A stretch of DNA of 64,000 bases from an uncultured Candidatus Saccharibacteria bacterium (GCA_964401285.1 CAYNXY010000001.1:3342-67341), one strand, 5' to 3'. Counted from the first letter of the stretch, positions 1 through 60,529 are shown. The notes: a model not told the origin generated them from the sequence alone. Numbers and translations: made by a program.

Positions 1-3000
1 CTCCAGTGGACTACTGCCTCTTCTGCGGAAAAGTTAAACGAGAACTCGTTCTCCACACTCTTTTGGTTTATGAAATCGGGAATCATTTTAGGAATAATTT
101 GTTCGGTGGCAGCACTAAGCAGGAGGAGAGGGATGGTTCCTGTTGTTTTTTCCTCGATGTGGATTTTTTCCCCTGTTTTTGCCTGGTGGGCAAGCAGACC
201 TCGGCAAGAAAAAACTAAACTTAGACGAAAAGATAAAATTAAACTTCGCCGTTTGGCGCGGAAGAATTGGAGATTTTTTGATGATCTCGTTGGAGCGGAA
301 ACCAACTTTTTACCTCTCGACACTTTCCAAAATACTCCGCAAAAGAAAATAGCGTGGAAAACATCTCCTACAAATATCGGACTCTATCTTCTTTCCGCTA
401 TTTCCGCCCATAATCTCGGATACATTTCCACTCTTAAATTCTTAAATCTTTTGGAAAAAACACTTTTTGCCCTGGAAAAGCTTCAAAAATACAAAGGGCA
501 CCTTTACAATTGGTACAATATTAAAAACCTCAAAATCCTGGCTCCTCATTATATATCAAGCGTTGATAGCGGGAACCTATGTGCTTCTTTTATTGTCGTT
601 AAAAACATGCTTGAAGAGCTCATGGAGTCCCCTTTCTCGACAAATAAAATACTACCCGGCTTGAAAGATGAGTTTCAACTTCTTAAAGAAAAAATTGAAA
701 AGATTGAAAACCGGAAAAAAACTTACAAAAAACATTTAGAGCGTTTGAGTTCATCAATCAACAAAACATCCGACTCTTCTTGGCAAGAATACTTAAGAAA
801 CGTAAAACAAGAAATTATTTCCTTTCGAAGTTTCTTAACCCGGGAAATGGAAACAGCTGATACAGAAGGGGCAAGGAAAATAAAAGAGATTTATTATTGG
901 CTGGAAAAATTAAGCTCCCATACGGATGATTTCTATTATGAAAGAAATGGTTTCACAAAAGACCCTAAAAAAGCAACAGAAAGCGCTGCAAGAAGATGTG
1001 AAAACCTCTCCCAAAGATTTGACAAACTCACAGAAGAAATGGACTTTAGCTTTTTATACAACCCGGATAAAAAGCTCTTTTCTTTAGGTTTCAGGGTAGA
1101 TAAAAACGAACTGGATAATATTTATTATAATTTTCTTGGCTCAGAATCACGCCTGGCTAGTTTTGTTGCTATAGCTAAAGGCGATCTCCCTGCCAAACAT
1201 TGGTTTGGGATGGAAAGAACCTTAACCAAACTGAAAAACAAAAAAGCAGTAATTTCCTGGGGAGGATCTCTTTACGAATACCTCCTCCCCAACCTATTTT
1301 TAAAAAATTATCCCGAAACTTTACTTCATGAAACAATCGAGGTAGCTGTTAAAAAACAAATCCAATACGGAGAAAGAAAAGGAATCCCCTGGGGGCTTTC
1401 CGAAAGCGCCTATAATGCCCAAAACAAGGAGGGTTTTTATCATTACAAGGCGTTCGGGGTGCCGGACTTGGGAGTTAAATTTTCTCTGGGCAAGGAACCA
1501 GTAGTAAGCCCTTATTCCACCATGCTTGCTCTCCCCCGCTTTCCTAAAAAAGCAATTAAAAATTTAAAAACACTTAAAAAGGAAGGGCTTGAAGGCGAGT
1601 ATGGTTTTTACGACGCAATAGATTACACTCCTCAAAGAATGCCTGCCGGGAAACGAGGGGTGGTTATCCCCACTTATTATGCCCACCATAAAGGTGCAAG
1701 CTTAATGGCGCTTACCGCTTCTCTTAATGACAATCCTTTTTCCAAGTATCTTTTCCGCGATTCACGTATAAAATCCGTAGAACATTTCTTGGAAGAAAAA
1801 ACTCCAAGGGAAACACCAACCCTTGAACTTCATAAGTTCAAAAAATCAAGAAAACCAAGAATAACGGAGGAAAGATTTGGGTTTTCCACCACCTATATCA
1901 CCGAACCATGTCAAGAAAACCCGAGTTCTTATTTTCTTTCCAACGGCAAATATCAAGTAATGATAGATGAGTCAGGAAGCGGATTTTCTAAATTCCAAGA
2001 TTTTTTCGTAACAAGATTCAGAAAAGACCCCACAAGAAGAGAATCAGGAACATTCTTTTATATTAAAGATCTGGACACGAAAGATATTTGGTCTTCTACT
2101 TTTCAGCCCACCAAAAAGCCACCTAAGAATTATAAAATACTTCAGCACGAAAACAAGGTGGAATTTACAAGAAAAGATGGAGGGATAGAAACCAGAACAG
2201 AAATAGTTGTAGCCCCCCGTGAAAATGCTGAAATAAGGAGGGTGACCCTAACAAACCAAAGCTCAAAAGAAAAAGAGTTAGAGATTACAAGTTACGGCAA
2301 GATAGTTATAAATGGAATGGGGCAGGACCTCACACACCCCGTATTTTCCGATATGCTTGTTTCTTCCGAGTTTCTCTCTGAAAAGAACGCTTTGCTTTTC
2401 TGCCGGCCGGAGGCTGACCAGGACACCCCTCTTTGGGCGACCCACATTATAACTGAACAAGAAGAACCGATTGAATTTTCTGCTGACCGAAAAAGTTTCA
2501 TTGGAAGGGGCAGAACACTTGAAAACCCAAAGGCCTTAGAGCAAAAACTCTCTGGTTCTTCTGGTTACACTCTTGACCCTATAATGAGTTTGAGGACTAC
2601 TGTTAAGCTTGCACCCGGGGAAAAGAAATCATTGGGGTTTACCACTGCTCTCTCTTTTCGTAAGGAAGAGGTTCTTTCTTTAGCAGATAAATATTCAAAA
2701 CTAAGCACTGTTGAGAGAACTATGCGGCTGGGAGAAAACTACGGGCAACTGGAGATGAGACAGCTTACCTTTTCTCCCGAGGAAAGCTTAATCTTCCAAA
2801 AACTTGCTTCTAAACTACTGTGGCCCGGGGAAAAATTAAGAAACACGGAAAAAATTAGAAAAAATAAAAAGAAAAAGGAAGACCTTTGGGGGTATTCCAT
2901 TTCCGGAGACCACCCCATTCTTCTCATCACAACTTCGAGCTTAAACGATTTGGATTACCTTCCTTTAATCCGCCAAACCATAAGAGCTCAGAAGTTCCTG

Positions 3001-5736: not shown

Positions 5737-5737
5737 C

Positions 5738-7045
5738 TTAAAACTCCTTGAGCTTATCTGCCTCCTCATGCTCGCGCAGTTTTTTCAGGGCGCGAGCTGC
5801 AATCTGACGTATTCTTTCTCTTGTCACCCCGAATTCCTGGCCCACCTCCTCCAAGGTGTGCTTCACCCCGTCTTCCAGGCCAAAACGCATCTCAAGAATC
5901 TTTTGCTCGCGCGGGGTTAGATCTTTCATAAGGTCTGAGAGCCGCTCTTTTAAAAGAGCACGAGTTGCTTCCTGGAGAGGGGTTGTGCTTTCCGTATCCT
6001 CGATGAACTCTTGCAAAAGGGTGTCCTGGTCTTCTCCAACCGGTGTTTCAAGCGAGATAGTACCCTTTATTATCTTTCTTATTTTTCTTACCTTAGATAA
6101 GCTTAAGCCCATCTCGGCAGCCATCTCTTCGGGTAGAGGCTCTCTCCCTAACTGTTTTCTCAACCTTCTTTGTTCTTTTGTATATTTGGAAAGTGTTTCC
6201 ACCATATGAACAGGAATTCTTATGGTCCTCGAATAGTCAGCCAAGGCTCTGGTAATCGCCTGTCTTATCCACCAGGTAGCATAAGTTGAAAATTTGTAAC
6301 CCTTTTTCCAGTCAAACTTTTCAACTGCACGAAACAGGCCCCTGTTCCCTTCTTGAATAAGGTCTAAAAAGCTAAGATAGGGAGAACGACCAATATATCT
6401 TTTAGCAATGGAAACAACCAGCCTCAAGTTCGCTTGAATCATTTTCTTTCTGGCCGCTTCTTTTTCCGCCCTATCGCCATTATTTATTTTTTTTGCAAGT
6501 TCTACCTCTTCCTTGCGAGAAAGAAGCGGGGTGCGCCCGATTTCCTTAAGATACATCTGAACCGGGTCCACCTTTCTCCTCTTCTCAATCGGACCCTCTT
6601 CTTCTTCCATTTCTAAAAATCCTCTTTTTTCTTTTATTTCCACTCCTTCTTCAGCCAACCGGCTGTAAAGCTTCTCCAGGCCTTCAATGTCTTTTTCCAA
6701 ATAAGAAAAGGTATTCAAAATCTCCGCCTCGGTTACAAACCCCCTGGCCCTTCCTCTTTCCACGAAATCTTCCACTTTTTCTTTTCTAAAAACTTTAGAT
6801 TTGGGCATCGAACTACCCGGCAAAGTTAAATCCAGCTCTCCCAGCGCTTCTTTTATCTCCTGCACCGATTTTTCACCAATCCCTTCTTTCTCAAGAAGGG
6901 TTTCTTCTTTTCTTCTTAAAAGTCCGGCCACTGTTTTAATATTGTTGCCCCGCAAAGCATTTTCCGTCCGAGTGGAGAGGCCGAGCTCCGTTACTGTGAT
7001 TGACTTTTTTTCTTCCAAATTCTTTTTATTCATTGATATTTTCAA
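5738..7045 (-). CDS. rpoD: RNA polymerase sigma-70 factor RpoD with an extra N-terminal alpha-CTD-like helix-hairpin-helix domain
   Basis: Region 1.2/2 ([23 protein letters not shown]), region 2.4 ([12 protein letters not shown]) and region 4 ([15 protein letters not shown]...[19 protein letters not shown]) are present. It lies immediately downstream of dnaG, the classical dnaG-rpoD arrangement. Confidence 0.9.
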
Positions 7046-8789
7046 TTTGTTTTGAAAGTTTATTAAAGTTTTCTGTTAACAATTTAACTTTTGACTCATC
7101 CCCCATCCTTTCCGCTTCTTTCAATCTTTTCGAAAGTGCCTTGAGTTCTTCTTTTCTCCTGATGTTTTTAATAACAGCAATACATTTTTTAACTTCATCT
7201 TTAACATTTTCCACCTCACCCATAACCTCTTTTCTTAAAAGAGCCATTTGCACTTTTTGGAACAGAGCTTGAGAAAGTTCTTCTTCAAGCTTCTTCGGAT
7301 CAAGAGCCTCCTTTCTAAAAACGGTGAAAAGCTCAACTGCTTCCGGAGAAAAAAACTCCATATCTTCTTTTTTGATATACTCTGCTGCTTCCGGGTCTTG
7401 AATCAAAAAGTAAAGCAACTCATCCTCCATCATCTCTTCTTTACTTTTTTGTCTTTCTTGCCTGTCTTCGTCTCCCGATTCTACTTCTTGTTTAAAAGTG
7501 GGGGTCTCCTCTTTTATTTTTACTTTTTTAAGCTCCCTTTCTATACTTTCCTCGCTCACCTTAAGCCCTTCCGCTATCTTTTGAATCCAGTGGAACCGCA
7601 CTATCTCGTTGGGAACTCTTTTTATAACCGGAAGTAATGTTTTTGCTATCTTTTTCTTCTCTTGTGCTTTGTCCGGGTCAAACTTCTCAAAAGCGGTTTG
7701 AAAATAATACTCTAAAACACCCTTAGCTTCTTCCACTAACTCTTTCCATTTCCCCGGTTTTTCTTTAATCACGTCAGCCGGGTCATGATTCCCCGACATA
7801 AGAATCACCTCCGTTTCAAAACCTTTCTTTTGAGCAAGTGCAATACCTCTTCTCGTAGCCGCACTACCCGCGCTGTCTGCATCAAAAGAAAATTGAAGAC
7901 GATCTGTATATCTTTTAAGGATACGAAGTTGATAAGATGTCAGCGCCGTACCCGAAGAAGCAACAATGTTTTCAATCCCGACTTGGGAAGAAAGGATAAC
8001 ATCCGTATACCCTTCGGTTACAATACAAGCATCTTTTTCTCTCACCGCAACTTTGGCTTTATTAAGCCCATAAAGCACTTTGCTTTTATTGTAAAGAGGT
8101 GTGTTTGAAGTATTAACATACTTAGCCGTGCTCTCCCCCATTCTCTTAAAAACCCTACCGCCAAACCCGATTACTCGTCCGTGCAGGTCAAAAACAGGAA
8201 ACATAATCCTGCCCCTAAAACGATCGTAATAATTACCTTTTTTATTTAAAACGGAAAGCCCTGTTTTTCTTATCTCTTCCTTTGTAAAACCGCGGGAAGT
8301 TAAAAAACGAGACAAAGAACGCCATTTATCGGGAGAATAACCCAGCCGCCACTTGCGAATTGAATCCTTATTTATCCCTCTTTCTTCAATCAAATACTTG
8401 TTTGCAAGCTGACCAGCTTTACTTTTTTGGAGCTGCTTTTCAAAAAAACGGCTTGCTAAATCACAAATTTCATAAAGCCGTTTCTTCTTACTTCTTGCCT
8501 TGTGGCTAACTTTCTTTAACTCAACCCCGGCCTTCCGGGCCAAGATTTCAAGTGCTTCTCTAAATTCCACCCCTTCAATTTCTTTCACAAATCCGTACAC
8601 ATCCCCTCCTTTGTCACACCCGAAGCATTTCCAAATCTGCTTACTGGGAGAAACAAAAAGAGAAGGTTTTTTATCGGAATGAAAAGGACAACGAGCTCTA
8701 TAATTGGCTCCTGCTTTTTCCAGCTTGATATAATCCTTAATGACATCTACTATGTCCAATCTGTTTTTAATTTCCTCAACCTGGTCCAT
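7026..8789 (-). CDS. dnaG: DNA primase DnaG
   Basis: Zinc-ribbon [25 protein letters not shown] and [16 protein letters not shown]. It overlaps the rpoD start by 20 nt. Confidence 0.9.
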
Positions 8790-50217: not shown

Positions 50218-51507
50218 TTACTCTTTTTTCCTTAAAAACGCCGGGCTTTCCCAGCGCTTTTCTCTCTTCAAAAGCTCTTTTTCAATTTCTTTAAGGTCTT
50301 TTTGTACTTCAAGTGCGTTTTTTCTTACTTTTTCCTTATCCTCCTCTTCTTCCTTTTTTTCTTTCTGATTTTTCTTCTGGGCCACGCTTACTTTTTTCTT
50401 CTCCGGCTCTTTCTTCTCCGGCTCTTTCTTCTCCGACATTCTTTTTTTTTCTTCTTCTTTTTGCCCAACACCACCTTTTATCTCACCTTGGCTGGGTTCT
50501 AAAAACAATCCCTCCATCCAACATCCGACTGACAAGAGGGTAACATCAAGCTGGTTTTTACCTCGAACCAGGTCCACTCCAAAGATAACTCGAGAGTCTT
50601 CTTCTTTAGTTTGTTTAGCAATCGTCTCCGAAATCTCTGCTACCTCAGAAAGCGAAAGATTTTCCGGAGCACTGATATTAAAAAGTATTCTGTCCGCGCT
50701 TGAGATATCGTAAGGGTAAAGCGGATTTTCAAGTAAGTTCCTAAGCACAGCTTTCACTCTACCTTTTCCCCCAGCCTGAGCCCTCGTAAGGTAAGAAAGC
50801 GAGCGTTCTCCTCGTAAAATAGTTTCCAAGTCGGCAAAATCAATATTTATAAGGCCGGGGCTGTGAATCATTTCTATCAACCCTTCCAAACTGTTCCCTA
50901 TTGAGTAATTTATGCTTGAAAGAGCTTTCTTGATGGGCACCTTCTCATCCACAACCTGAAACACTCTTTGATTAGGGATAACCGCTAAAGCGTGAAGTAA
51001 AAATTGAAGTTTGCTCAAAGACATCTTAGCGGTTTTTAACTTTTTCTCTCTCTCAAACTCAAAGGGTAAAGTAAAAAATCCATAACTTAGCATTTCTAAA
51101 TCTTGAGCGATCTCAGCAAAAACAGGCATAGCACCAGAACCGGTACCACCACCAAGGCAAGAAACAAAAATACACAAATCAGCCCCTTCCAGGGCTTCTT
51201 TTATTTTCTCACTGTTTTCTTCTGCTGCTTTTCGACCCATCTCCACATCCATCCCCGTTCCCATTCCTTGAGTAGTTTCTTCTCCGAAACGAATGGTCTC
51301 AATTCTTTTTTTACGACTAAACTGAGAAAGAGCCGACTGGTCCGTGTCAGCGATATAAAAATCAGTTCGTTTATACTTAGCTGCAATGTCCCTGATAATG
51401 GAACCTGCACCTCCTCCCACGCCAACAACCTTAACCTTGATTTTATGAATAGGGAAATCCTCCTTCTTCTGTTTTTTTGCTTTTTCTTTCTTTTTATTTT
51501 TAGCCAT
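50218..51507 (-). CDS. ftsZ: Cell division protein FtsZ with a long Lys/Glu-rich C-terminal extension
   Basis: GVGGGAGSIIRDI, tubulin signature SCLGGGTGSGAMPVFAEIA and a C-terminal low-complexity EKKEPEKKEPEKKK. Confidence 0.9.
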   Translation of the reverse strand: MAKNKKKEKAKKQKKEDFPIHKIKVKVVGVGGGAGSIIRDIAAKYKRTDFYIADTDQSALSQFSRKKRIETIRFGEETTQGMGTGMDVEMGRKAAEENSEKIKEALEGADLCIFVSCLGGGTGSGAMPVFAEIAQDLEMLSYGFFTLPFEFEREKKLKTAKMSLSKLQFLLHALAVIPNQRVFQVVDEKVPIKKALSSINYSIGNSLEGLIEMIHSPGLINIDFADLETILRGERSLSYLTRAQAGGKGRVKAVLRNLLENPLYPYDISSADRILFNISAPENLSLSEVAEISETIAKQTKEEDSRVIFGVDLVRGKNQLDVTLLSVGCWMEGLFLEPSQGEIKGGVGQKEEEKKRMSEKKEPEKKEPEKKKVSVAQKKNQKEKKEEEEDKEKVRKNALEVQKDLKEIEKELLKREKRWESPAFLRKKE

Positions 51508-52444: not shown

Positions 52445-54079
52445 TTAATTATTTTTATCTTCTCCTCCGTTTTCCGTCTTTTTTTCTGCTTTTTTAGGGA
52501 TTTCCACATAAAAAGTGCTTCCTTTTCCTTTGCCTTTACTTTTCGCCCATATCTCCCCTCCATGAAGCTCTACGTATTTCTTATTAAGATACAAACCAAG
52601 CCCGGTCCCTTCCACAAAACGGTTCACCCCGGCTTCACCTCTTATAAAACGAGCGAATATTTTCGTAAGCTCTTCCTCGCTCATCCCTTCCCCTGTGTCT
52701 TGTACTTTCAACCTAACCTTGGAATCAACGGATTCTAAGGTTATAGTTATGCTACCCTCATTAGTATATCTTATAGCATTGTCTAGTAAGTTGAATACAA
52801 CTTGCCTCATCTTAACCGGGTCCACCCTTAGTTTATCAAAATCTTTCGGTTTACGCCACTTAATCTTTAAACCCTTCTTCTCTGCTCTACGGGATAACTC
52901 GTTTACAACACTTTCCACCACCTCACCCATATCCGTTTCCTCAAGCTCAAGTTCAAGCCGCCCTAAATCTGCCTTGGAAATATTTAAAAGATCGTTAACC
53001 ACATTCACCAATCTCTCGTTTGATTCAAATATATCTTTAAGCGGAGGGCGAGCGTCCTCGGGGACCTCCCCGTATTCACCTTCAAGTATCATCGAAGAAA
53101 GCCCCTTAACAATGGTAATAGGCGTTCGGAGCTGATGGGAAGCCATAGCCACAAACTCACTTTTTGCTTCATCTATTCTTTTAAGTTCATCATATGCCTC
53201 CCTGAGATTATCCGCCATCTCTTCCATCTCCTCTCGCCGCTTTATCTCCTTTAATACACTCTTAATGAGGGTCCATCCGAGGTAAATGAAGGCAATGAGA
53301 ATCAAACCTTTAAATATAACCTTGCTTGCTCCCTGCGCCAACAATAACTCTATAAAAAGAACTAAACTGACTAATCCAACAAGTAATTCAGTAGCTATAA
53401 CCCTGATATTAAACAAATGGTGCTTGGTAATAGCGTAGGCTATAAAAATAACCATAGCTAAGGTCCACATCGGTCCAATTTGATAATATCTAAAATTTCC
53501 GACCGTTGGCAATAATAGATTAAATACGGTCGCGAAAAAAACAGTAACAAAAAAACCTACTAGTATATACTTAATCTGTCTTTTTAGGTTTCTTTTTGCC
53601 TTTTTATACTTGGCAACTAATAACCAAAATCCTAGAAAAAAATAGAAAGAAATATAAAAGAAATATAACGGATACAAAGAACCAAAAGAAATTATTCGCT
53701 CTTTGTTAAAAACCTTAAACCCAGTAATAATATAGTCTGCATGTATTAAGTAAACAAAAAGAGAAAACGGTATCCAGAGAATAAAACTAATCCACTTTGG
53801 GAAGAAAGGCTTATTTTCAGGAAAATAAAGACAAAAATATAAGAAAAACAAAGCTGAAAGCGCTGCGGCTGAATAAGCCACCTTACTCAATAACAAGGCT
53901 GTTTCTGGAATATTAGTATAATAATAAACAAATAAGGGAGCAGACCACAATATTACACTTCCTAAGAGTAATAGATAAAAGAGGATTGATTTCGTAATCT
54001 TAGTACTAAAATATATAAAAACGACCAAAGCTAAATTCACTAAAATAGTCACTAATAAAATAGCAGAAGTTATAGCCAT
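52445..54079 (-). CDS. Sensor histidine kinase with a large N-terminal multi-pass membrane sensor domain
   Basis: About 8 TM helices, a coiled linker, H-box ASHQLRTPITIVKG and HATPase_c N/G1/G2 boxes (DNAIRYT...QDTGEGM...GTGLGLY). Confidence 0.85.
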   Translation of the reverse strand: MAITSAILLVTILVNLALVVFIYFSTKITKSILFYLLLLGSVILWSAPLFVYYYTNIPETALLLSKVAYSAAALSALFFLYFCLYFPENKPFFPKWISFILWIPFSLFVYLIHADYIITGFKVFNKERIISFGSLYPLYFFYISFYFFLGFWLLVAKYKKAKRNLKRQIKYILVGFFVTVFFATVFNLLLPTVGNFRYYQIGPMWTLAMVIFIAYAITKHHLFNIRVIATELLVGLVSLVLFIELLLAQGASKVIFKGLILIAFIYLGWTLIKSVLKEIKRREEMEEMADNLREAYDELKRIDEAKSEFVAMASHQLRTPITIVKGLSSMILEGEYGEVPEDARPPLKDIFESNERLVNVVNDLLNISKADLGRLELELEETDMGEVVESVVNELSRRAEKKGLKIKWRKPKDFDKLRVDPVKMRQVVFNLLDNAIRYTNEGSITITLESVDSKVRLKVQDTGEGMSEEELTKIFARFIRGEAGVNRFVEGTGLGLYLNKKYVELHGGEIWAKSKGKGKGSTFYVEIPKKAEKKTENGGEDKNN

Positions 54080-54867
54080 AACAATATTTTTGCTTTAATT
54101 GCCTTCAAAGACCTTCTCAAAGAATAAATAAACTTAACAACTATTGCGTTTTTAAATAAAAAAATATTTTCTCCTAATTTTTTGAACAAAAGCTTATTAT
54201 TAAGAATAGAATCGACATAATTCTCCACTTCTTCTCTTAGATAATATATTAAATAAACTGGTCTGTTCGGGTCGTTGAAAAAATTAGAAAGAGGATCGTG
54301 CGATTTTTCTGGATCATAAATTAACTCTTTCTTATTAATAACATGTACAGGAAGACCTAGTTCTAGTATGCTTTTTAGAGCCTTTCCCTTAATCGTACCA
54401 TAACCAGCTTTAATATTGTTTTCTCTAGAAAAATCTAGCATAGAAGAAATCAATCCTAATAAAATCAAATGCCTTGGTAAATACACCTTTTCAGAATATT
54501 TAATAGAAATTAGCCTCCCAATCTCACAGACTTCATCAGAAGACATTTTTTTAATCTCTGAAGGTTCTTTAAACTCATAATACTCTGTTCTTGTGGGCGG
54601 AGGGGAAATTGTTATTATGCGGGCGCTACCAATTATTTTTCCGTCAATCTCAGCAATAAAGTAATGGCACTTATTGATTCTATCGTATTCGTCAATCTCT
54701 CTCTCCTCTAAACTTTCGTCGTCTGGTATATATGCTTCTTTTTTGACATAAACCTTATATCTGAGCTCATACATCTTGTCCAGCTCTTCTTCACTGTTAG
54801 GCATTCCAAATAATATAGTTTTCAATTCCCCACGGAGATTGATTTTAATGCTCTTATACGCCTTCAT
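54070..54867 (-). CDS. GNAT-fold N-acyltransferase of the autoinducer-synthase-like (LuxI / FeeM N-acyl amino acid synthase) type
   Basis: MYELRYKVYVKKEAYIPDDESLEEREIDEYDRINKCHYFIAEIDGKIIGSARI matches the LuxI/FeeM pattern R-x2-VF-x(n)-E-x-D-x-YD-x(n)-G-x3-G-x-RL. The 265-aa length is in range. Confidence 0.45.
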   Translation of the reverse strand: MKAYKSIKINLRGELKTILFGMPNSEEELDKMYELRYKVYVKKEAYIPDDESLEEREIDEYDRINKCHYFIAEIDGKIIGSARIITISPPPTRTEYYEFKEPSEIKKMSSDEVCEIGRLISIKYSEKVYLPRHLILLGLISSMLDFSRENNIKAGYGTIKGKALKSILELGLPVHVINKKELIYDPEKSHDPLSNFFNDPNRPVYLIYYLREEVENYVDSILNNKLLFKKLGENIFLFKNAIVVKFIYSLRRSLKAIKAKILLWL

Positions 54868-54870
54868 GAT

Positions 54871-55569
54871 TCACAATTTTCTCCCTGAATTCAAAATCGA
54901 CTGATCAGCGTAAACTGAAAAGTCGTTAGATACATCAGAAAAGCCTACTTCTTGTAACAAAACTTTTTGTTCTCCTTTTTCAAAAAAATAGTACTCATTT
55001 TCCTGAGTGATAAAGTGGTTGTAGTAAAGAATCTTTATAGCTGGTTTGATAAGAAGAGTTACTTTAACTAAACTTTTTAAAAACCCTTGCTCTTTAAAAT
55101 TAAGCTTTAACCCTTCTAAATATATTTTAAAGGGACTCCAGCCCTTTTTAGGGTTAGCTATCACTACCTTCCCGTTCGGTTTTAACACTCTTATGAATTC
55201 TTTTAAAACTTCTTTGTGTTTTTTTTTCGGAATCGCGTATAAGACATTGTTACAGGTAATTTTATCAAAGTGCTCATTTGGAAAAGGTAACTTTTCTCTT
55301 AGGTCAGAAAGGACTAACTCAAGCACTGGATTTTTACTCCTACAAATATCGAGAGCTGCTTGTGAATTATCGAGCCCCACTACCTCTGCTCCTCTTTCTT
55401 CCAGCTTCAAAGCTAAATTACAAGTACCACAACCAGCTTCTAAAACCTTATCTCCCTCTTTAACGTCCAACTCATCACAAATAGTATTTAAAAGTTTTTG
55501 ATAAGGAATCAAAAGATTTAACACGTCATAAACTTCAAAATATTTTCTCCAGAAATCTGCACTAAGCAT
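54871..55569 (-). CDS. Class I SAM-dependent methyltransferase
   Basis: Motif I VLEAGCGTCNLALKL, motif post-I VVGLDNS and motif II ITCNNVLYAI. Confidence 0.8.
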   Translation of the reverse strand: MLSADFWRKYFEVYDVLNLLIPYQKLLNTICDELDVKEGDKVLEAGCGTCNLALKLEERGAEVVGLDNSQAALDICRSKNPVLELVLSDLREKLPFPNEHFDKITCNNVLYAIPKKKHKEVLKEFIRVLKPNGKVVIANPKKGWSPFKIYLEGLKLNFKEQGFLKSLVKVTLLIKPAIKILYYNHFITQENEYYFFEKGEQKVLLQEVGFSDVSNDFSVYADQSILNSGRKL

Positions 55570-55715
55570 TTTAACAATTTCTTCTATTTTACCTCAATTT
55601 CCTTAAAAATCAAAAAGAGGACGGGAACTCCCACTCCCCTTCAAGGTGTTAAAATTTAATACAACAAAACATTTAATTTTTCCCTTTTTTAGGGCTAAAC
55701 ATTACCTTGCTATCT

Positions 55716-56069
55716 TTAAAAATACGGTAAAAAGATTATGAGACCAATGATTAAGGCGCCTAACGCGGCAACTAAAACCCCCGCGGCCATTGTGTCTTTT
55801 ACAACTCGAACTTGAGGGCGGAACTCCGGCTCAACTATATCAAGCATTTTTTCAGCGGTGGTATTAATAAGCTCGAGAGATAAAACCAAAAAAACCATAA
55901 TTAAAATAATAGTTTTTTCCAGAGCGGTAATACCAAAATAAAACATTAAAAAGGTCACAAATAAAGCTGTTAGCAACTGAATGCGAAAACTCTGCTCCTC
56001 GTAAAAAGCGTATTTTAAACCGCTAAAAGCGTAGCGCAAACTCTGGACAAATTCTTGAAAAGAAAACAT
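55716..56069 (-). CDS. dgkA: Diacylglycerol kinase / undecaprenol kinase (prokaryotic DagK family)
   Basis: 117 aa with 3 TM helices and the conserved ELINTTAEK (cf. ELLNTAIE). Confidence 0.8.
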   Translation of the reverse strand: MFSFQEFVQSLRYAFSGLKYAFYEEQSFRIQLLTALFVTFLMFYFGITALEKTIILIMVFLVLSLELINTTAEKMLDIVEPEFRPQVRVVKDTMAAGVLVAALGALIIGLIIFLPYF

Positions 56070-56225
56070 TTCCCTTGGATTTATTTTGACCTATCACTCT
56101 TATTCTAACTTAACTTTCCCCAGAATCAAAAAAAGAAATTGGCTGAAGGCACTCAATTCGATTTCTTTCTCCCTTCTTTTTATTCTGTTATGCTAGAGAA
56201 GGGACTGAAATAAAAATCATATTCT

Positions 56226-57383
56226 ATGAGGGAAAAACATTTAAAGATTAAAAATTGGAGCAAGGGGTTTGCGGGGTGCCTGCATTTTCCTTTTCCCCAT
56301 TTTCTTACTCGATTTTTGGAAAAAACAAAAATAATTGAAAAATGCTTTGTTTTTTTTGGCCTGCTCAGACCCGTGAAAGATTTCAAGCTTTGCGAGGTTC
56401 CTCCCAGAACGGCTGTTTTAATAAAGGAGGGGAGAAAAAAAGGAATAACTTTTAGGGCCCTTAAAAGCCCTGCGGGGTTTACCAGTTATTTTTTGATGAA
56501 AATCGACGAAAAATCTTTTTTAATCGAAGGGCTGCCAAGAGCGGAATTTTTAAGCGGGCCCGCCTACGAGCTGGTAGACGACAAATACAAGGTTAAAAAA
56601 ACGTTAGAAGAAAAAGGGCTGCCCACGCTAAAAGGAGAGTCATTCTGGTGGTTTCAAAAAAAGAAGGCCCTTAACTTCAGCTCTCGCCTAGGGTTTCCCT
56701 TGGTGGTCAAGCCGAGAACCGGCTCTCTGGGAAAAAAGGTTTTTACCAATTTAAAAAACCAAGAGGAGGTAGACGCGGCCATAGAAGAAGCAAGCAAGTT
56801 TTCCCCTGCTTTTTTAATAGAAAAGTTTTTACCTGACGTTTCAGATTTTAGGGTAACAATAGTGGATTTTGAAAAAGTTTTTTGTTTTAAAAGAATTACC
56901 GCCCAAGTAATTGGAGACGGAACTCATACTATTTCCCAACTTATCCAAAAAGAAAACCAGAACCCAAAACGAGGCAAAACCCGTACCATTAAAACCCCTT
57001 TTTACAAGTTAGTAACAAACAAGGAAACAGAAAAGATATTAAAAGAGCAAGGTTTCTCTTTTTCAGATGTCCCCCAAAAAGAAGAAATCGTAAAGCTACA
57101 AAAAGACCCTTTCCTAAGGTTGGGAGGAACCACCACAAACAAAGTAGAAGTAGCACCTGAAAACATTCAACTTTTTAAAAAAATAGCCAGAACTTTTGAA
57201 GCAAGGGTAGTGGGAATTGATTTTTTAGCCGAAGACATCTCGGTTCCCTGGCAAAAACAAACTTGTGCTGTTTTAGAGCTCAACAGCTTGCCGGGGATCA
57301 TCGGCCACCATTTCCCCTCTTCCGGCTCCCCCCAAAATGTTGCCGGCGCGATAATCGAGATGGTTTTAAAATACTACAAGTAA
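56226..57383 (+). CDS. Stand-alone cyanophycin-synthetase-like ATP-grasp ligase (CphA N-terminal ATP-grasp module without the Mur-ligase domain)
   Basis: Collinear with the CphA ATP-grasp region: VIGDGTHTISQLIQKENQNPKRG; LRLGGTTTNKVEVAPEN...ARVVGIDFLAEDISVPW...AVLELNSLPGI; SGSPQNVAGAIIEMV. The protein ends there. Confidence 0.65.
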   Translation: MREKHLKIKNWSKGFAGCLHFPFPHFLTRFLEKTKIIEKCFVFFGLLRPVKDFKLCEVPPRTAVLIKEGRKKGITFRALKSPAGFTSYFLMKIDEKSFLIEGLPRAEFLSGPAYELVDDKYKVKKTLEEKGLPTLKGESFWWFQKKKALNFSSRLGFPLVVKPRTGSLGKKVFTNLKNQEEVDAAIEEASKFSPAFLIEKFLPDVSDFRVTIVDFEKVFCFKRITAQVIGDGTHTISQLIQKENQNPKRGKTRTIKTPFYKLVTNKETEKILKEQGFSFSDVPQKEEIVKLQKDPFLRLGGTTTNKVEVAPENIQLFKKIARTFEARVVGIDFLAEDISVPWQKQTCAVLELNSLPGIIGHHFPSSGSPQNVAGAIIEMVLKYYK

Positions 57384-57417
57384 AAACTGAATGTCTTTTG
57401 TCGGTTAAAAATTTAAA

Positions 57418-57442
57418 ACAGGCACAAAAGTGCCCGTTTTTT
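57418..57442 (+). terminator. Rho-independent terminator (GGCAC-AAAA-GTGCC plus CGTTTTTT) between convergent genes
   Basis: Hairpin plus T-tract, 35 nt after the ATP-grasp stop. Confidence 0.65.
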
Positions 57443-57460
57443 AGTTAAGCAACAAGATTT

Positions 57461-59185
57461 TTATTCTTTAACAGAACCCGATTCTTTTTCTTTTAAAACG
57501 TAATGCAAGGTTTTACCCAGGTGGGATTTAGGGATTTCGGAGATTTTTTCAATCTTTTTAGGAAGTTTATAGTAAGTAAGGTGTTTTCGACAGAAATCAA
57601 GAAGTTCCTCTTCCTCTACCCCATTTTTGCTCACCACAAAGGCCTTGGGCGCCTCACCTGTTTTTTCATCCTCTACTTTTATGACCGCTGCTTCTTTTAC
57701 TGCAGGGTGCTTGGACAAAACCTCTTCTATTTCCCGAGGCCAAACCTTCTGACCACTTATATTTATCATATCATCCAACCGTCCCTGGATGTAAAAATAG
57801 CCGTCTGCATCCATTAAAGCAATATCCTTGGTATGAAACCAACCGTCTTCATCAAACATTTCTTTTGTCAACCCCGGCTCATTCCAATACCCTCTAAAAA
57901 GTTGAGGGCCTTTAATCATAAGTTCTCCTGAATGTAGAGCCGGCAGTTCTTCTCCGCTTTCGGGATGTACGATTTTAACTTTTGTCCCCGGCAGAGGAAT
58001 ACCGATGCTTCCTACCTTCTGCTTCCCTAAAGGCGGGTTCATGTGAGTAATGGGAGAGCTTTCAGTTAAACCGTAGGCCTCTATTATCGGCTCCCCCGTT
58101 ATTTTTTTTACCTTTCTTAAAACTTCAGCCGGGCAGGAAGCAGCACCGCTTCCACAGAAACGAATGGAAGAAATGTCAAAACATTCCGGGTCCTTTTCAA
58201 TAAGCCCCATAATAGCGGAGAAAATAGCAGGCACCCCTGCCACAATAGTAATCCCATACTCTTCTATTGCTTCACAGGCCGGTTTAGTATGAAATTCGGG
58301 GAAAAGAACCACAGTCCACCCTTCCCGCATAGAATAGTTAAGCACAAAAGTCAGCCCGTAAATATGAAAAAAGGGCAAGGCGCCGAACTGCACTTCCTTG
58401 CCCGGCCACGTTGCCTTACCTATGAGAGCACTAATCTGGTCAAGGTTGGCAGTAACATTAAAATGGGTAAGTGGAACACCCTTGGGATCCCCCGTAGTAC
58501 CACTGGTATACATCAGAAGAGCCAAATCGTTTTTTGCTTCAATAGAAACCTTCTCGGGCTCCGAAGAAGAGTTCTCAATAAGCTCTTCAAAATCCAAGGC
58601 GCCGTTGTTTTTCAGTTTAGCTCTTTTAGTCGCCTGAAATACTCTTTTAGGCAAATTCTTAATGCTATTTAAAACTCCAAGGTGAGAAGGCAGATAAGCA
58701 CCAATATCCGTTAAAATAATATTATCAATTTCCAGTTTGTCTTGAATCTCAGCCACGCGACCCGAAAATATTTTAAGAGCCACAATCGTGCGGGAGCCGG
58801 AATCTTTCATGACTTGTAATAATTCTTTTTTAGTATAAAGGGGGTTAAGAGGTGAAACCACCGCTCCCACTTTTAAAGCCCCGTAAAAAGCAATAACGAA
58901 AGACGGGCAGTTGGGAAGAAAAAGAGTTACTATATCTCCTTTTTTAACACCCATCTTTTGCAGAGCAGAAGCAAAACGATCCGACTTTCCTTCAAGCTCC
59001 TTAAAAGAATGAGTTTGTCCGTAAAATACGAGGGCTTCTTTATCCGGATAATCCTTAGCCGAGGCGGACAAAACCTCCTGGAGTGGATAAGATTCAGGTT
59101 CCAATTCTCTCCCTGCCCCTTCAGGGTAGTTTTCCAACCACACCCCATCCATATCCTTTGCCTTTTTGTTTAAAAAATCATTCAT
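57461..59185 (-). CDS. Acyl-CoA ligase (AMP-binding / long-chain fatty-acid--CoA ligase family). The real start is possibly the internal Met at about 59152.
   Basis: AMP-binding motif LMYTSGTTGDPKGV, hinge/A8 GYGLTE and a C-terminal lid; 563-574 aa. Confidence 0.85.
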   Translation of the reverse strand: MNDFLNKKAKDMDGVWLENYPEGAGRELEPESYPLQEVLSASAKDYPDKEALVFYGQTHSFKELEGKSDRFASALQKMGVKKGDIVTLFLPNCPSFVIAFYGALKVGAVVSPLNPLYTKKELLQVMKDSGSRTIVALKIFSGRVAEIQDKLEIDNIILTDIGAYLPSHLGVLNSIKNLPKRVFQATKRAKLKNNGALDFEELIENSSSEPEKVSIEAKNDLALLMYTSGTTGDPKGVPLTHFNVTANLDQISALIGKATWPGKEVQFGALPFFHIYGLTFVLNYSMREGWTVVLFPEFHTKPACEAIEEYGITIVAGVPAIFSAIMGLIEKDPECFDISSIRFCGSGAASCPAEVLRKVKKITGEPIIEAYGLTESSPITHMNPPLGKQKVGSIGIPLPGTKVKIVHPESGEELPALHSGELMIKGPQLFRGYWNEPGLTKEMFDEDGWFHTKDIALMDADGYFYIQGRLDDMINISGQKVWPREIEEVLSKHPAVKEAAVIKVEDEKTGEAPKAFVVSKNGVEEEELLDFCRKHLTYYKLPKKIEKISEIPKSHLGKTLHYVLKEKESGSVKE

Positions 59186-59195
59186 ATTTTAGAAT

Positions 59196-59224
59196 AAAAA
59201 AACCAACATCTCTGTTGGTTTTAA
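59196..59224 (-). terminator. Hairpin (AACCAACA-GAGA-TGTTGGTT plus U-tract) between the C45 gene and the acyl-CoA ligase
   Basis: Perfect 8-bp stem with T-tract and A-tract on either side. It lies 160 nt downstream of the C45 gene and 11 nt upstream of the ORF-track ligase start. Confidence 0.5.
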
Positions 59225-59383
59225 AAGCAATAAATAATAATGCTAGGTGAAACAAAATAGCTTAACTTCCTCCTTTCACAAAATGTAGTTTTGAAGGTAG
59301 GTAAAAGTGTCATCCCCTCTTGTTAACAATTTTTAAATTTTAAACGATATCTTTTCTCATTATCCTACAAGAAAATAATAATG

Positions 59384-60529
59384 TCAAGAAGTGCTAAAAA
59401 TCTCATCCAGGAAGAATTCCTGCCATTCCCCATTAAAAGTAACAGGAACCTTGTTGCCTGCGGGAAAAAGGATTTTTCTCTCTTGAGGAATATAAATAAA
59501 CCCCTGCACGGTGCCATTATTGGAAACAGAACCGCGGCGCGGACTGAACGTTTTCTCATGGATTTTCATTATTTTTATCGCCTCCTCAGTCGAACTCACT
59601 CCGTCTTTTATTTCTTTTTTAATGTTTTCCCCCCTTTTAAGAGTAGCATTATATTCTTTATGATTTTCATAGTTTTTCACGTACCATTTGTTCTTCATCT
59701 CCTCAGAAACAAAGTGGTTGGTGTTAACCAAAACCCCGTTCATTCTTTCCACAAAATAGTCACCCTGACACATCTCCACAAGAAAAGTATTTTGCCTCTC
59801 GCCGTCTGAGACGAGACAGGCAAAGGGACGGATGGAACTTACTTTTTTCAATGCTTTAAGCCAAATGCGGGAGTTTGAAGCAAGCTTAGTGAGCCCCCAA
59901 GCAATAGAAACAATGGGTGTGTTGTCAAAATCAAACCCCTTGTGGGCCCCGCCTCCGTCATTAACCGCAAAAAGAGTTCCTTTTTTTGTGATAACGGAAT
60001 CTGTTATGAGAAGACCCGGCAAAGAAGGAGCAATAAATTTATTTTGCAACTCATTATTATCATAAACAGCAATAAATCTTCTTTTACTTATAAACTCAGT
60101 TACTTTTTTTTCAAAATAAAGGTCAGTTGTTTTTCCGATTAAAACATTTTCCGTTTTTTTAAACGGTGCAGCAAAAAAGGAACACCCTACAAAAGTGTTC
60201 CTGAAGGCAATGGCTATCTCGTAAATTGAATTAAAAAGCAATACCCATTCCAAAGCTACCCCGCTCCCCTCAGAAATCCCTTTCATTTCTTCTATCTCGT
60301 CAGTAGTGTACTCTTTTTTAAGATTATTCGTCTTTCTAAACACTATCTTCATAAAAAACTTGGCAGAAGCCCACCCCAGTTTGTTCTGAACATAGTGAGT
60401 GATAAAATCCGTTTCGTCCTCTATCTCCTCTCTTAAAAAAGACCCATGAGCAAAACCCCGCTTATACGGATCTTTTTCTCTTAAAAACAAAAAATTTACG
60501 CCTCTTATTTTTTTAAAATCTGATTCCAT
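59384..60529 (-). CDS. Ntn-hydrolase of the peptidase C45 / acyl-CoA:6-aminopenicillanic-acid acyltransferase-like family
   Basis: 381 aa with a candidate autoproteolytic nucleophile in VGCSFFAAP (Gly-Cys-Ser) followed by LIGKTTD. The length and pattern fit the C45/AAT family but are not diagnostic. Confidence 0.35.
   Translation of the reverse strand: MESDFKKIRGVNFLFLREKDPYKRGFAHGSFLREEIEDETDFITHYVQNKLGWASAKFFMKIVFRKTNNLKKEYTTDEIEEMKGISEGSGVALEWVLLFNSIYEIAIAFRNTFVGCSFFAAPFKKTENVLIGKTTDLYFEKKVTEFISKRRFIAVYDNNELQNKFIAPSLPGLLITDSVITKKGTLFAVNDGGGAHKGFDFDNTPIVSIAWGLTKLASNSRIWLKALKKVSSIRPFACLVSDGERQNTFLVEMCQGDYFVERMNGVLVNTNHFVSEEMKNKWYVKNYENHKEYNATLKRGENIKKEIKDGVSSTEEAIKIMKIHEKTFSPRRGSVSNNGTVQGFIYIPQERKILFPAGNKVPVTFNGEWQEFFLDEIFSTS

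What the first reader, a model, noticed from the sequence alone, without database searches (positions are those of the whole stretch)
56226..57383. Cyanophycin-synthetase ATP-grasp module as a free-standing protein
The protein aligns block-for-block with the ATP-grasp domain of CphA (VIGDG-HTI-L---NQ-P-RG; GGT...GIDF; PRNVA-IIDM) but stops where the Mur-ligase-like arginine-adding domain would start. A lone backbone-elongating module could make poly-Asp/Glu-like peptides or add an acidic amino acid to an acyl or amine acceptor. It sits in the putative acyl-metabolite locus next to an acyl-CoA ligase.
Basis: partly seen in the sequence, partly recalled or inferred. Interest (0 to 1): 0.55.

Follow-up and report, generated by a model that had tools for sequence, protein, structure and literature searches.

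The report
Orphan cyanophycin-synthetase-like ATP-grasp ligase
The gene is a real, free-standing relative of the ATP-grasp domain of cyanophycin synthetase, but it belongs to a large uncharacterised family of ultra-small (Patescibacteria) bacteria that does not look built to add aspartate, and this copy is an atypical member that has lost the family's usual methyltransferase partner and several conserved pocket residues.

Summary
ORF 56226-57383 (+, 385 aa) aligns with the ATP-grasp G domain of cyanophycin synthetase (PDB 7lg5, E 3e-41; Foldseek 7wae, E 6.5e-29, TMq 0.72). It ends where the MurE-like domain would begin, and RimK is far more distant.

- The gene is not a truncated CphA. It belongs to a family of >300 stand-alone proteins, apparently Patescibacteria-specific, that forms its own clade beside CphA1/CphA2.
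- ATP, Mg and acyl-phosphate residues are invariant, but CphA's aspartate-binding residues are replaced (Arg458 to Glu/Asp, Asn394 to Phe, His267 to Val/Leu). Poly-Asp synthesis is therefore unlikely.
- No neighbour from the "acyl locus" recurs in 81 other loci. A terminator-like hairpin separates the gene from the convergent acyl-CoA ligase.
- The family's real partner is a membrane-anchored, aKMT-like N-methyltransferase directly downstream in 44 of 76 loci.

The window copy lacks that partner, the N-terminal CxxC..H motif, and the residues D302, E305, T307, H310, C357 and E359.

Best reading: a single-step carboxylate-amine ligase with altered or weakened specificity. Its substrate is unknown.

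The parts
56226..57383 (+). Complete ORF, 385 aa: stand-alone CphA-G/GshF-type ATP-grasp ligase homologue
   Evidence: ORF list; PDB and NCBIfam matches; AF2 model pLDDT 89.7; Foldseek 7wae E 6.5e-29
56226..56390 (+). Residues 1-55: family-specific N-terminal helical extension with no counterpart in CphA. Here it is shortened and lacks the CxxC..H motif that 76 of 82 family members carry; only W11 is kept.
   Evidence: Alignment A1; motif census; low pLDDT of 50-78 over residues 1-40; Foldseek aligns only about 334 columns
56391..56564 (+). Residues 56-113: N-terminal part of the G-core (pre-ATP-grasp subdomain), equivalent to TeCphA1 residues 161-213
   Evidence: 7wac alignment; strands and helix predicted with pLDDT >87
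56565..57380 (+). Residues 114-385: ATP-grasp core. Retained: ATP-binding K120 and K162, hinge E199, acyl-phosphate R209, Mg ligands D332/E351/N353, and the clade motif HHFPSSGSPQNVA. Atypical: K171, T302, N305, V307, A310, G357, I359.
   Evidence: Residue mapping to the functionally tested TeCphA1 residues; clade-wide comparison
57415..57440 (.). Bidirectional terminator-like hairpin (11-bp stem, T-runs on both strands) between the convergent ATP-grasp and acyl-CoA-ligase genes
   Evidence: Consensus scan. This is a pattern match only.
56070..56225 (.). 156-bp A/T-rich intergenic region shared with the divergent DAGK gene; presumed promoter region of the monocistronic ATP-grasp gene
   Evidence: Sequence. 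No convincing + strand sigma-70 match lies between 56070 and 56225. A Shine-Dalgarno motif is absent, but that is true of 32 of 38 genes in the window.

Best explanation
The gene encodes a soluble, stand-alone ATP-grasp carboxylate-amine ligase of the CphA-G/GshF/Ngg clade. By analogy with those enzymes, ATP held by K120 and K162 with two Mg2+ ions (D332, E351, N353) phosphorylates a substrate carboxylate positioned by R209. An amine then attacks the acyl-phosphate to form one amide bond. This is a single addition, not polymerisation, because the primer-anchoring N domain and the Arg-adding M domain of CphA are absent. The protein belongs to an uncharacterised, apparently Patescibacteria-specific family and is not a truncated cyanophycin synthetase. 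In typical members the pocket that holds the incoming aspartate in CphA is re-lined with acidic and hydrophobic residues (E/D359, D302, F296). In addition, the gene is translationally coupled to a membrane-anchored aKMT-like N-methyltransferase. Together these suggest ligation of a cationic amine whose free amino group is then N-methylated at the membrane. The window copy is an orphan. It has lost the methyltransferase partner, the N-terminal CxxC..H motif and the acidic pocket (T302, N305, I359), and it has also lost clade-wide T307 and H310. It therefore probably uses a different, neutral nucleophile or is catalytically weakened. It is not functionally tied to the neighbouring acyl-CoA ligase. 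Shown here: homology, fold, residue states, family distribution and gene neighbourhoods. Inferred: the chemistry, the charge of the nucleophile, and the consequence of the substitutions.
For: Homology and fold: (ranking CphA1 > CphA2 > GshAB >> Ddl/RimK). Family: >300 stand-alone hits covering 90-100% of the query; 353 representatives at E<1e-30; 80 loci from species-representative genomes, nearly all titled as Patescibacteria lineages; a separate clade in the NJ tree. Catalytic residues are invariant while the Asp-binding residues are replaced. Partner: a ~188-aa protein at +1 on the same strand in 44 of 76 loci with enough downstream sequence, 33 of them with a 4-nt overlap; an N-terminal TM helix in 43 of 44; profile match to aKMT 5fa8 at E 5e-19; aKMT/FAM173 are lysine N-methyltransferases, the latter membrane-anchored. 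Presence of the partner co-varies with the pocket signature Q223/C357/E359. The window copy has no partner in 64 kb, is the only one of 82 with none of the three acidic residues, lacks CxxC..H, and has lost clade-conserved positions 305, 307 and 310. No frameshift artefact is present. Its nearest relatives L005, L008 and L088 keep the partner.
Against: No substrate is identified. The 'cationic nucleophile' inference rests on alignment to CphA contact residues, not on a structure with ligand. The window protein's excess of substitutions at conserved sites is only a moderate outlier once overall divergence is allowed for (rank 5 of 152, z 1.8). The NJ tree has no support values and lacks GshF and Ngg sequences. 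The partner could lie elsewhere in the genome, since only 64 kb was examined. Forty-three per cent of family loci also lack the partner, so its absence alone is not unusual.
Confidence: 0.6

Rival explanations
1. One reading: a lone backbone-elongating CphA module that makes poly-Asp/Glu-like peptides, or adds an acidic amino acid to an acyl or amine acceptor, as part of an acyl-metabolite locus with the adjacent acyl-CoA ligase.
For: CphA G domain is the closest characterised homologue. R223, equivalent to CphA Arg323 (which binds the beta-carboxyl of Asp), is retained, as is G357, equivalent to oxyanion Gly456. Lipid- and acyl-type genes surround the gene: FeeM-like GNAT, methyltransferase, DAGK, FadD, C45.
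Against: Asn394->Phe, Arg458->Ile and His267->Leu, and each of these CphA residues is required for TeCphA1 activity. No N domain is present to hold a polymer. None of these neighbours recurs in 81 other loci. The gene is on the opposite strand, with a terminator-like hairpin before the FadD gene.
Confidence: 0.08
2. Lineage-specific recruitment: after losing its methyltransferase partner, the window copy was re-tooled (neutral or hydrophobic pocket: I359, T302, N305, V307, A310) to extend an N-acyl amino acid made by the nearby FeeM-like synthase. This would be a split, long-chain analogue of Ngg (GNAT + ATP-grasp) producing an N-acyl dipeptide lipid.
For: Ngg, a fused GNAT plus CphA-type ATP-grasp, is a significant homologue over residues 59-380 (104 bits). 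A FeeM-like/OlsB-like GNAT, a FadD-type ligase, a DAGK and a methyltransferase lie within 3 kb. The substitutions remove charge from the predicted nucleophile pocket. GshF, which ligates glycine, also has a hydrophobic residue at the Arg458 position.
Against: There is no conservation support, because the arrangement is unique to this window. The transcription units are separate and on opposite strands. The loss of clade-wide residues 305, 307 and 310 fits decay as well as re-tooling.
Confidence: 0.1
3. Decaying or inactive copy: a pseudo-enzyme drifting after loss of its partner.
For: It is the only one of 82 members lacking all three acidic pocket residues. It has lost D/E305, T/S307 and H310, which are conserved across CphA1, CphA2-like, tandem-array and family proteins. 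It deviates at 10 of 65 columns that are >=90% conserved, against a median of 2. It has no partner and no CxxC..H motif.
Against: The ORF is intact and full length, with no frameshift. All ATP, Mg and acyl-phosphate residues and the HHFPSSG-PQNVA motif are retained. Its branch length in the tree is unremarkable. It is only a moderate outlier after correction for divergence. The model is confident.
Confidence: 0.2
4. Family-level alternative: a ligase that modifies the peptidoglycan stem peptide, for example by adding a residue or amine to a UDP-MurNAc-peptide or lipid II carboxylate or amine.
For: Mur ligase or Ddl genes lie within +-5 genes in 10 of 82 loci, with different genes in different loci: MurC/Mpl, MurD, MurL-MurD, MurE, MurF and Ddl. 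In L071 the MurC/Mpl gene follows the ATP-grasp gene after a 3-nt gap. A VanW/PG_binding_4 gene overlaps the start in L006. The partner is membrane-anchored.
Against: Enrichment is uncertain (p 0.0002 to 0.12 depending on the assumed background). Single housekeeping genes (HSP20, PrsW, gyrA) recur at similar frequency through plain synteny. The window has no mur gene nearby. No N-methylation of peptidoglycan is known (my own knowledge).
Confidence: 0.15
5. Split cyanophycin synthetase: the G module works with a separately encoded MurE-like M subunit.
For: CphA is the closest homologue. The Mur-family genes near some relatives could be read this way.
Against: No M or N domain is found in the window. 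The nearby Mur genes in relatives score as ordinary MurC/D/E/F. The Asp-binding residues are not conserved.
Confidence: 0.02

Closest known systems
Cyanophycin synthetase 1, G domain (TeCphA1 7wac/7wae; SuCphA1 7lg5)
   Same: Best sequence and fold match: 28-31% identity over about 330 residues, E 3e-41 (sequence) and 6.5e-29 (fold). The same G-core/G-lid/G-omega layout. The same ATP, Mg and acyl-phosphate residues (K220, K261, R309, D431, E450, N452 correspond to K120, K162, R209, D332, E351, N353). The shared motif H-x-x-P-S-x-G-x-x-x-N-V-A.
   Different: No N domain and no MurE-like M domain. His267->Leu, Asn394->Phe, Arg458->Ile (Glu/Asp in the family). An extra 55-aa N-terminal extension. 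Forms a separate clade. Scores 215 bits against the 850-bit cutoff of TIGR02068.
GshF/GshAB C-terminal ATP-grasp module (3ln6, 3ln7)
   Same: Equally good structural superposition (TMq 0.74). Performs a single amino-acid addition to a peptide C-terminal carboxylate. Has a hydrophobic residue at the P-loop position and at the Arg458 position, as in the window protein.
   Different: In GshF the module is fused to a gamma-glutamate-cysteine ligase domain. Sequence similarity is lower (141 bits against a 425-bit cutoff). No glutathione context is evident here.
Ngg, N-acetylglutaminylglutamine synthetase (TIGR03103)
   Same: A CphA-type ATP-grasp that extends an N-acylated amino acid by one residue; aligned over residues 59-380.
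   Different: Ngg carries a fused N-terminal GNAT. The score is 104 bits against a 569-bit cutoff. No asnO-type partner is present.
aKMT / FAM173B (ATPSc-KMT) lysine N-methyltransferases, as the closest known relatives of the family's partner and not of the window gene
   Same: The partner family matches aKMT 5fa8 over the whole catalytic domain (E 5e-19). Like FAM173B, it has an N-terminal TM segment before the MTase domain.
   Different: The partner is bacterial (Patescibacteria), operonic with an ATP-grasp ligase, of unknown substrate, and absent from this window.
RimK / LysX / Ddl ATP-grasp ligases
   Same: The same superfamily fold and acyl-phosphate chemistry.
   Different: Only distant: RimK family 50 bits against a 143-bit cutoff; Foldseek E about 1e-10 and TMq <= 0.46.

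Membership tests
Cyanophycin synthetase (CphA1) | Whole-protein score above the curated cutoff of TIGR02068 (850 bits) | tested here: not met
   215 bits, covering only model positions 206-472
Cyanophycin synthetase (CphA1) | N-terminal primer-anchoring domain and C-terminal MurE-like M domain | tested here: not met
   The protein ends at the G/M boundary. tblastn of CphA N and M domains against the window gives a best E of 0.065.
Cyanophycin synthetase (CphA1) | Aspartate-recognising residues Arg323, Asn394 and Arg458, plus P-loop His267 | tested here: not met
   R223 is kept. F296, I359 and L168 replace the other three. The family consensus is Q/R, F, E/D and V/L.
Cyanophycin synthetase (CphA1) | Makes cyanophycin or extends (beta-Asp-Arg)n primers | not testable with these tools
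   Requires an enzyme assay
ATP-grasp superfamily (carboxylate-amine ligases) | ATP-grasp fold | tested here: met
   AF2 model pLDDT 89.7; 553 PDB matches at E<=0.001, all of the listed ones ATP-grasp enzymes
ATP-grasp superfamily (carboxylate-amine ligases) | Two ATP-binding lysines, three Mg ligands (D/E/N), and the acyl-phosphate arginine | tested here: met
   K120, K162, D332, E351, N353 and R209 are present and invariant in the family
ATP-grasp superfamily (carboxylate-amine ligases) | ATP-dependent ligase activity | not testable with these tools
   Requires an enzyme assay. The loss of clade-conserved residues 305, 307 and 310 leaves activity uncertain.
RimK family | Score above the TIGR00768 cutoff (143.4 bits), or RimK as the closest relative | tested here: not met
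   50 bits. RimK 5zct ranks 30th in Foldseek at E 9e-10. It is absent from the profile-PDB hits at 1e-5.
GshF / GshAB bifunctional glutathione synthetase | Fused gamma-Glu-Cys ligase domain and a score above the NF002688 cutoff (425 bits) | tested here: not met
   141 bits on the C-terminal module only; no GshA-like region in the 385-aa protein
Ngg (N-acetylglutaminylglutamine synthetase) | Fused GNAT domain and a score above the TIGR03103 cutoff (569 bits) | tested here: not met
   104 bits, ATP-grasp part only
Patescibacterial stand-alone CphA-G-like family (defined here) | Full-length similarity (about 385-450 aa) including the N-terminal extension and the C-terminal HHFPSSGxPQNVA..KYY tail | tested here: met
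   42-54% identity over 90-100% of the query to >100 members
Patescibacterial stand-alone CphA-G-like family (defined here) | N-terminal CxxC..H..W motif | tested here: not met
   Present in 76 of 82 members. The window has only W11. A stop codon 5 codons upstream excludes a longer N-terminus.
Patescibacterial stand-alone CphA-G-like family (defined here) | Acidic pocket residues D302, E/D305 and E/D359, and H310 | tested here: not met
   The window has T, N, I and A. It is the only one of 82 with none of the three acidic residues.
Patescibacterial stand-alone CphA-G-like family (defined here) | Directly downstream TM-anchored aKMT-like methyltransferase (partnered subtype) | tested here: not met
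   44 of 76 loci have it. No homologue is found in the 64-kb window (best E 0.012). The rest of the genome was not available.

The most novel reading that the evidence does not exclude
The family and its translationally coupled, membrane-anchored aKMT-like methyltransferase form a previously undescribed Patescibacteria-specific two-enzyme system. It would install an amide-linked, N-methylated cationic group on an envelope component, possibly a peptidoglycan precursor or lipid. The window copy, having lost the methyltransferase and the acidic pocket, would have been re-tooled to extend N-acyl amino acids made by the adjacent FeeM-like synthase and FadD-type ligase, a split long-chain analogue of Ngg that yields an N-acyl dipeptide lipid.
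Probability: 0.1. Interest if true: 0.65.

Novelty: new variant of a known kind. Interest (0 to 1): 0.36.

Why it matters
Patescibacteria (CPR) have tiny genomes in which most conserved families of unknown function are unexplored. A CphA-type ligase family found apparently only in this phylum, with a re-lined substrate pocket and an operonic membrane-anchored lysine-methyltransferase-like partner, is a concrete and testable lead to a lineage-specific metabolite or envelope modification. The result also cautions against annotating these proteins as "cyanophycin synthetase", as some JGI records do. Metabolic reconstructions that infer cyanophycin storage in Patescibacteria from such hits could be wrong. 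For the specific window gene the significance is modest: it is a divergent orphan member whose activity is uncertain.

Tried and rejected
1. Split CphA. tblastn of CphA1 M and N domains against the window and about 86 loci found nothing in the window and only housekeeping-type Mur genes in two loci. Rejected.

2. A SAM methyltransferase near the window gene as the conserved partner. Early loci all had a nearby MTase, but all-vs-all BLAST showed several unrelated MTase types. The window MTase (54871-55569) joined the partner cluster only through single linkage and is not an orthologue.

3. Rosetta-stone fusion. The ~555-aa family members P0163 and P0189 carry an unrelated C-terminal extension, not the methyltransferase.

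4. Local frameshift as the cause of the aberrant stretches 295-315 and 350-368. The other frames contain stops or unrelated sequence.

5. Shine-Dalgarno or promoter evidence for expression. Uninformative: only 6 of 38 genes in the window have an SD-like motif, and no clear + strand promoter match was found.

6. Looking up the window protein's own contig record. Not on record.

7. AFDB fold search. The library was unavailable.

8. Literature. No paper in the held library describes a stand-alone CphA-G-like family or its methyltransferase partner. The Iyer et al. 2009 ATP-grasp survey is not held.

9. Peptidoglycan linkage. Explored and kept only as a weak rival, because the enrichment depends on the assumed background.

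Full report
**Observation**

The window holds an intact ORF at 56226-57383 (+), 385 aa, with an in-frame stop five codons upstream of the ATG.
- NCBIfam ranks cyanophycin synthetase first (TIGR02068, 215 bits, residues 112-382 on model positions 206-472 of 862). GshAB follows at 141 bits, Ngg at 104 bits, and RimK at only 50 bits.
- Against solved structures the best sequence hits are CphA1 7lg5 (E 3.3e-41, residues 114-380 on 214-479) and TeCphA1 7wac (E 6e-38, residues 56-381 on 161-480).
- An AlphaFold2 model built on a 42-sequence alignment is confident (pLDDT 89.7, pTM 0.88).
- Foldseek places that model on the CphA1 G domain (7wae, E 6.5e-29, TMq 0.72) and on GshF (3ln6, TMq 0.74). ArgX, LysX, Ddl and RimK lie about 17 or more orders of magnitude behind.
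- The protein ends at the CphA G/M boundary. Neither the CphA M domain nor its N domain has a homologue anywhere in the window.

**It is a family, not a liberated module**

- A word-indexed search of 5.8 billion proteins returned 317 hits. The best 120 are all 339-449 aa long and 42-54% identical, and most cover 90-100% of the query, including the first 55 residues that have no CphA counterpart.
- An exhaustive HMMER scan of 1.84 billion cluster representatives found 353 proteins at E<1e-30. Almost all of the top 40 are 360-410 aa.
- Eighty loci from species-representative genomes are nearly all titled as Patescibacteria/CPR lineages: Paceibacteria, Uhr-, Wolfe-, Jorgensen-, Doudna-, Magasanik-, Falkow- and Nealsonbacteria and others. 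Eight carry an automatic "Gammaproteobacteria" label from one binning project, which I did not verify.
- In a neighbour-joining tree of the ATP-grasp module, the family is a single clade beside the CphA1/CphA2 clade rather than nested within it. The tree has no support values and includes no GshF or Ngg sequences.
- Public records call these proteins "hypothetical protein", "D-alanine-D-alanine ligase-like ATP-grasp enzyme" or "cyanophycin synthetase".
- I found no paper describing them in the held library.

**Active site**

Miyakawa et al. (PMC9427784) identified the TeCphA1 residues by structure and mutagenesis. I mapped them through the alignment.

| TeCphA1 residue and role | Window protein | Family |
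|---|---|---|
| Lys220, Lys261 (ATP) | K120, K162 | invariant |
| Arg309 (primer carboxylate / acyl-phosphate) | R209 | invariant |
| Asp431, Glu450, Asn452 (Mg) | D332, E351, N353 | invariant or nearly so (E351: 41 of 42) |
| Arg458 (alpha-carboxyl of incoming Asp) | Ile | Glu/Asp in 41 of 42 |
| Asn394 (beta-carboxyl of incoming Asp) | Phe | Phe in 39 of 42 |
| Arg323 (beta-carboxyl of incoming Asp) | Arg | Gln in 32 of 42, Arg in 10 |
| His267 (critical P-loop residue) | Leu | Val/Leu |

The acyl-phosphate machinery is conserved, but the aspartate pocket is not. A charge reversal at the Arg458 position, together with D302, suggests a cationic nucleophile for typical members; this is an inference. 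With no N domain to hold a polymer, a single ligation as in GshF or Ngg is more plausible than polymerisation.

**Gene neighbourhood**

I called ORFs around the homologue in 82 loci and clustered the neighbours.
- Only one family recurs strongly. It is a ~188-aa protein found directly downstream on the same strand in 44 of the 76 loci that have enough downstream sequence. In 33 of those 44 the stop and start overlap by 4 nt.
- This protein has an N-terminal TM helix in 43 of 44 cases.
- Its profile matches the crenarchaeal broad-specificity protein-lysine N-methyltransferase aKMT (5fa8) at E 5e-19 over the whole catalytic domain. The weaker hits include several other N-methyltransferases (BamL, pavine, coclaurine and tetrahydroprotoberberine N-methyltransferases).
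- aKMT's eukaryotic relatives FAM173B/ATPSc-KMT and ANT-KMT have the same TM-plus-MTase layout (PMC9006661).
- Presence of the partner co-varies with the pocket signature. Partnered proteins are Q223/C357/E359. Partner-less ones are mostly R223, Y/F/S at 357, and D359.
- The window's neighbours FadD-type ligase, C45 acyltransferase/hydrolase, FeeM-like GNAT and DAGK are singletons in this census.
- The ATP-grasp gene is the only + strand gene in the region. It converges on the FadD gene across a bidirectional terminator-like hairpin at 57415-57440.

The "acyl-metabolite locus" link therefore has no comparative support.

**The window copy is atypical**

- It has no partner homologue in 64 kb (best E 0.012). 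Its nearest relatives L005, L008 and L088 keep the partner, while L090 does not.
- It lacks the N-terminal CxxC..H motif present in 76 of 82 members.
- It is the only one of 82 with none of the three acidic residues D302, E/D305 and E/D359; it has T, N and I instead.
- Positions 305 (D/E), 307 (T/S) and 310 (mostly H) are conserved across CphA1, CphA2-like proteins, the tandem arrays and this family. The window has N, V and A there.
- It deviates at 10 of 65 columns that are >=90% conserved, against a median of 2. After regression on overall divergence this is only a moderate outlier (rank 5 of 152, z 1.8).
- The aberrant stretches are not frameshift artefacts.

The pattern fits either a shift to a neutral nucleophile or partial loss of function. 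In favour of a shift, GshF, which ligates glycine, has Met or Tyr at the Arg458 position. I cannot separate the two readings with these tools.

**Weaker leads**

- Mur ligase or Ddl genes lie within five genes in 10 of 82 loci. They are different genes in different loci: MurC/Mpl, MurD, a MurL-MurD fusion, MurE, MurF and Ddl. In L071 the MurC/Mpl gene follows the ATP-grasp gene after a 3-nt gap.
- Depending on the assumed background, this gives p between 0.0002 and 0.12. Single housekeeping genes recur at similar rates through plain synteny. I keep a peptidoglycan role only as a rival explanation.
- A Rosetta-stone fusion with the methyltransferase was sought and not found.

**Verdict**

The gene is a stand-alone CphA-G/GshF-type ATP-grasp ligase from an uncharacterised, apparently Patescibacteria-specific family. 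That family's conserved companion is a membrane-anchored aKMT-like N-methyltransferase. This copy is a divergent orphan that is unlikely to make poly-Asp and is not demonstrably tied to the adjacent acyl-CoA ligase. I rate it as a new variant of a known kind, of moderate-to-low interest for the window gene itself. The family and its partner are the more interesting lead.

Noticed in passing
window 54070-60529: A run of lipid- and acyl-type genes in what looks like a CPR genome: a FeeM/OlsB-like N-acyl amino acid synthase GNAT (54070-54867), a class-I SAM methyltransferase (54871-55569), a prokaryotic diacylglycerol kinase (55716-56069), a FadD-like long-chain acyl-CoA ligase (57461-59185) and a C45-family acyltransferase/hydrolase (59384-60529). 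This could be a lipo-amino-acid locus in its own right, independent of the ATP-grasp gene.
   Followed up: partly
proteins P0140, P0160, P0168, P0171, P0184, P0155: Proteins that score higher against the query than true CphA are tandem arrays of 2-3 CphA-G-like ATP-grasp modules ending in an acylphosphatase domain. P0140 adds an LPG_synthase_C-like domain, and P0155 is fused to MmgE/PrpD. As far as I know this architecture is uncharacterised.
   Followed up: no
L045 3273-5720: An 815-aa fusion of a MurL-like UDP-MurNAc-L-Ala-L-Glu epimerase with MurD in a Uhrbacteria MAG, two genes downstream of the ATP-grasp/methyltransferase pair.
   Followed up: no
proteins P0163 (561 aa) and P0189 (553 aa): Family members with an extra conserved ~165-aa C-terminal extension. 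It has no Pfam match and is unrelated to the methyltransferase partner.
   Followed up: partly
L001 2241-6152: The gyrA gene upstream of the homologue carries an intein with a LAGLIDADG endonuclease (1303-aa product). A free-standing LAGLIDADG gene sits in L002 at 5645-6073.
   Followed up: no
window, all genes >=200 aa: Only 6 of 38 long ORFs have a GGAG/GAGG/AGGA motif within 20 nt upstream of the start, and upstream regions are A/T-rich. This organism appears to rely little on Shine-Dalgarno pairing.
   Followed up: partly
window 50218-51507: An FtsZ-like gene with a long, highly charged Lys/Glu-rich C-terminal tail that includes KKEPEKKEPEKKK repeats.
   Followed up: no
window 52445-54079 and L005 3840-5387 / 6680-8044: HisKA_7TM-type sensor kinases with an adjacent response regulator lie near the ATP-grasp gene both in the window and in its relative L005. 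They fall in the same neighbour clusters (cluster 14 with 4 members; cluster 25 with 2 members). This may be local synteny.
   Followed up: partly
family loci, e.g. L001 6803-7699, L004 12346-13893, L006 8075-10387, L090 1137-1583: Small T4SS_pilin-like (PF18895) membrane proteins, often in tandem, occur within five genes in 14 of 82 loci. I did not test whether this exceeds their general abundance in CPR genomes.
   Followed up: no
window 70-5736: A very long ORF (1888 aa) at the start of the window. It was not examined.
   Followed up: no
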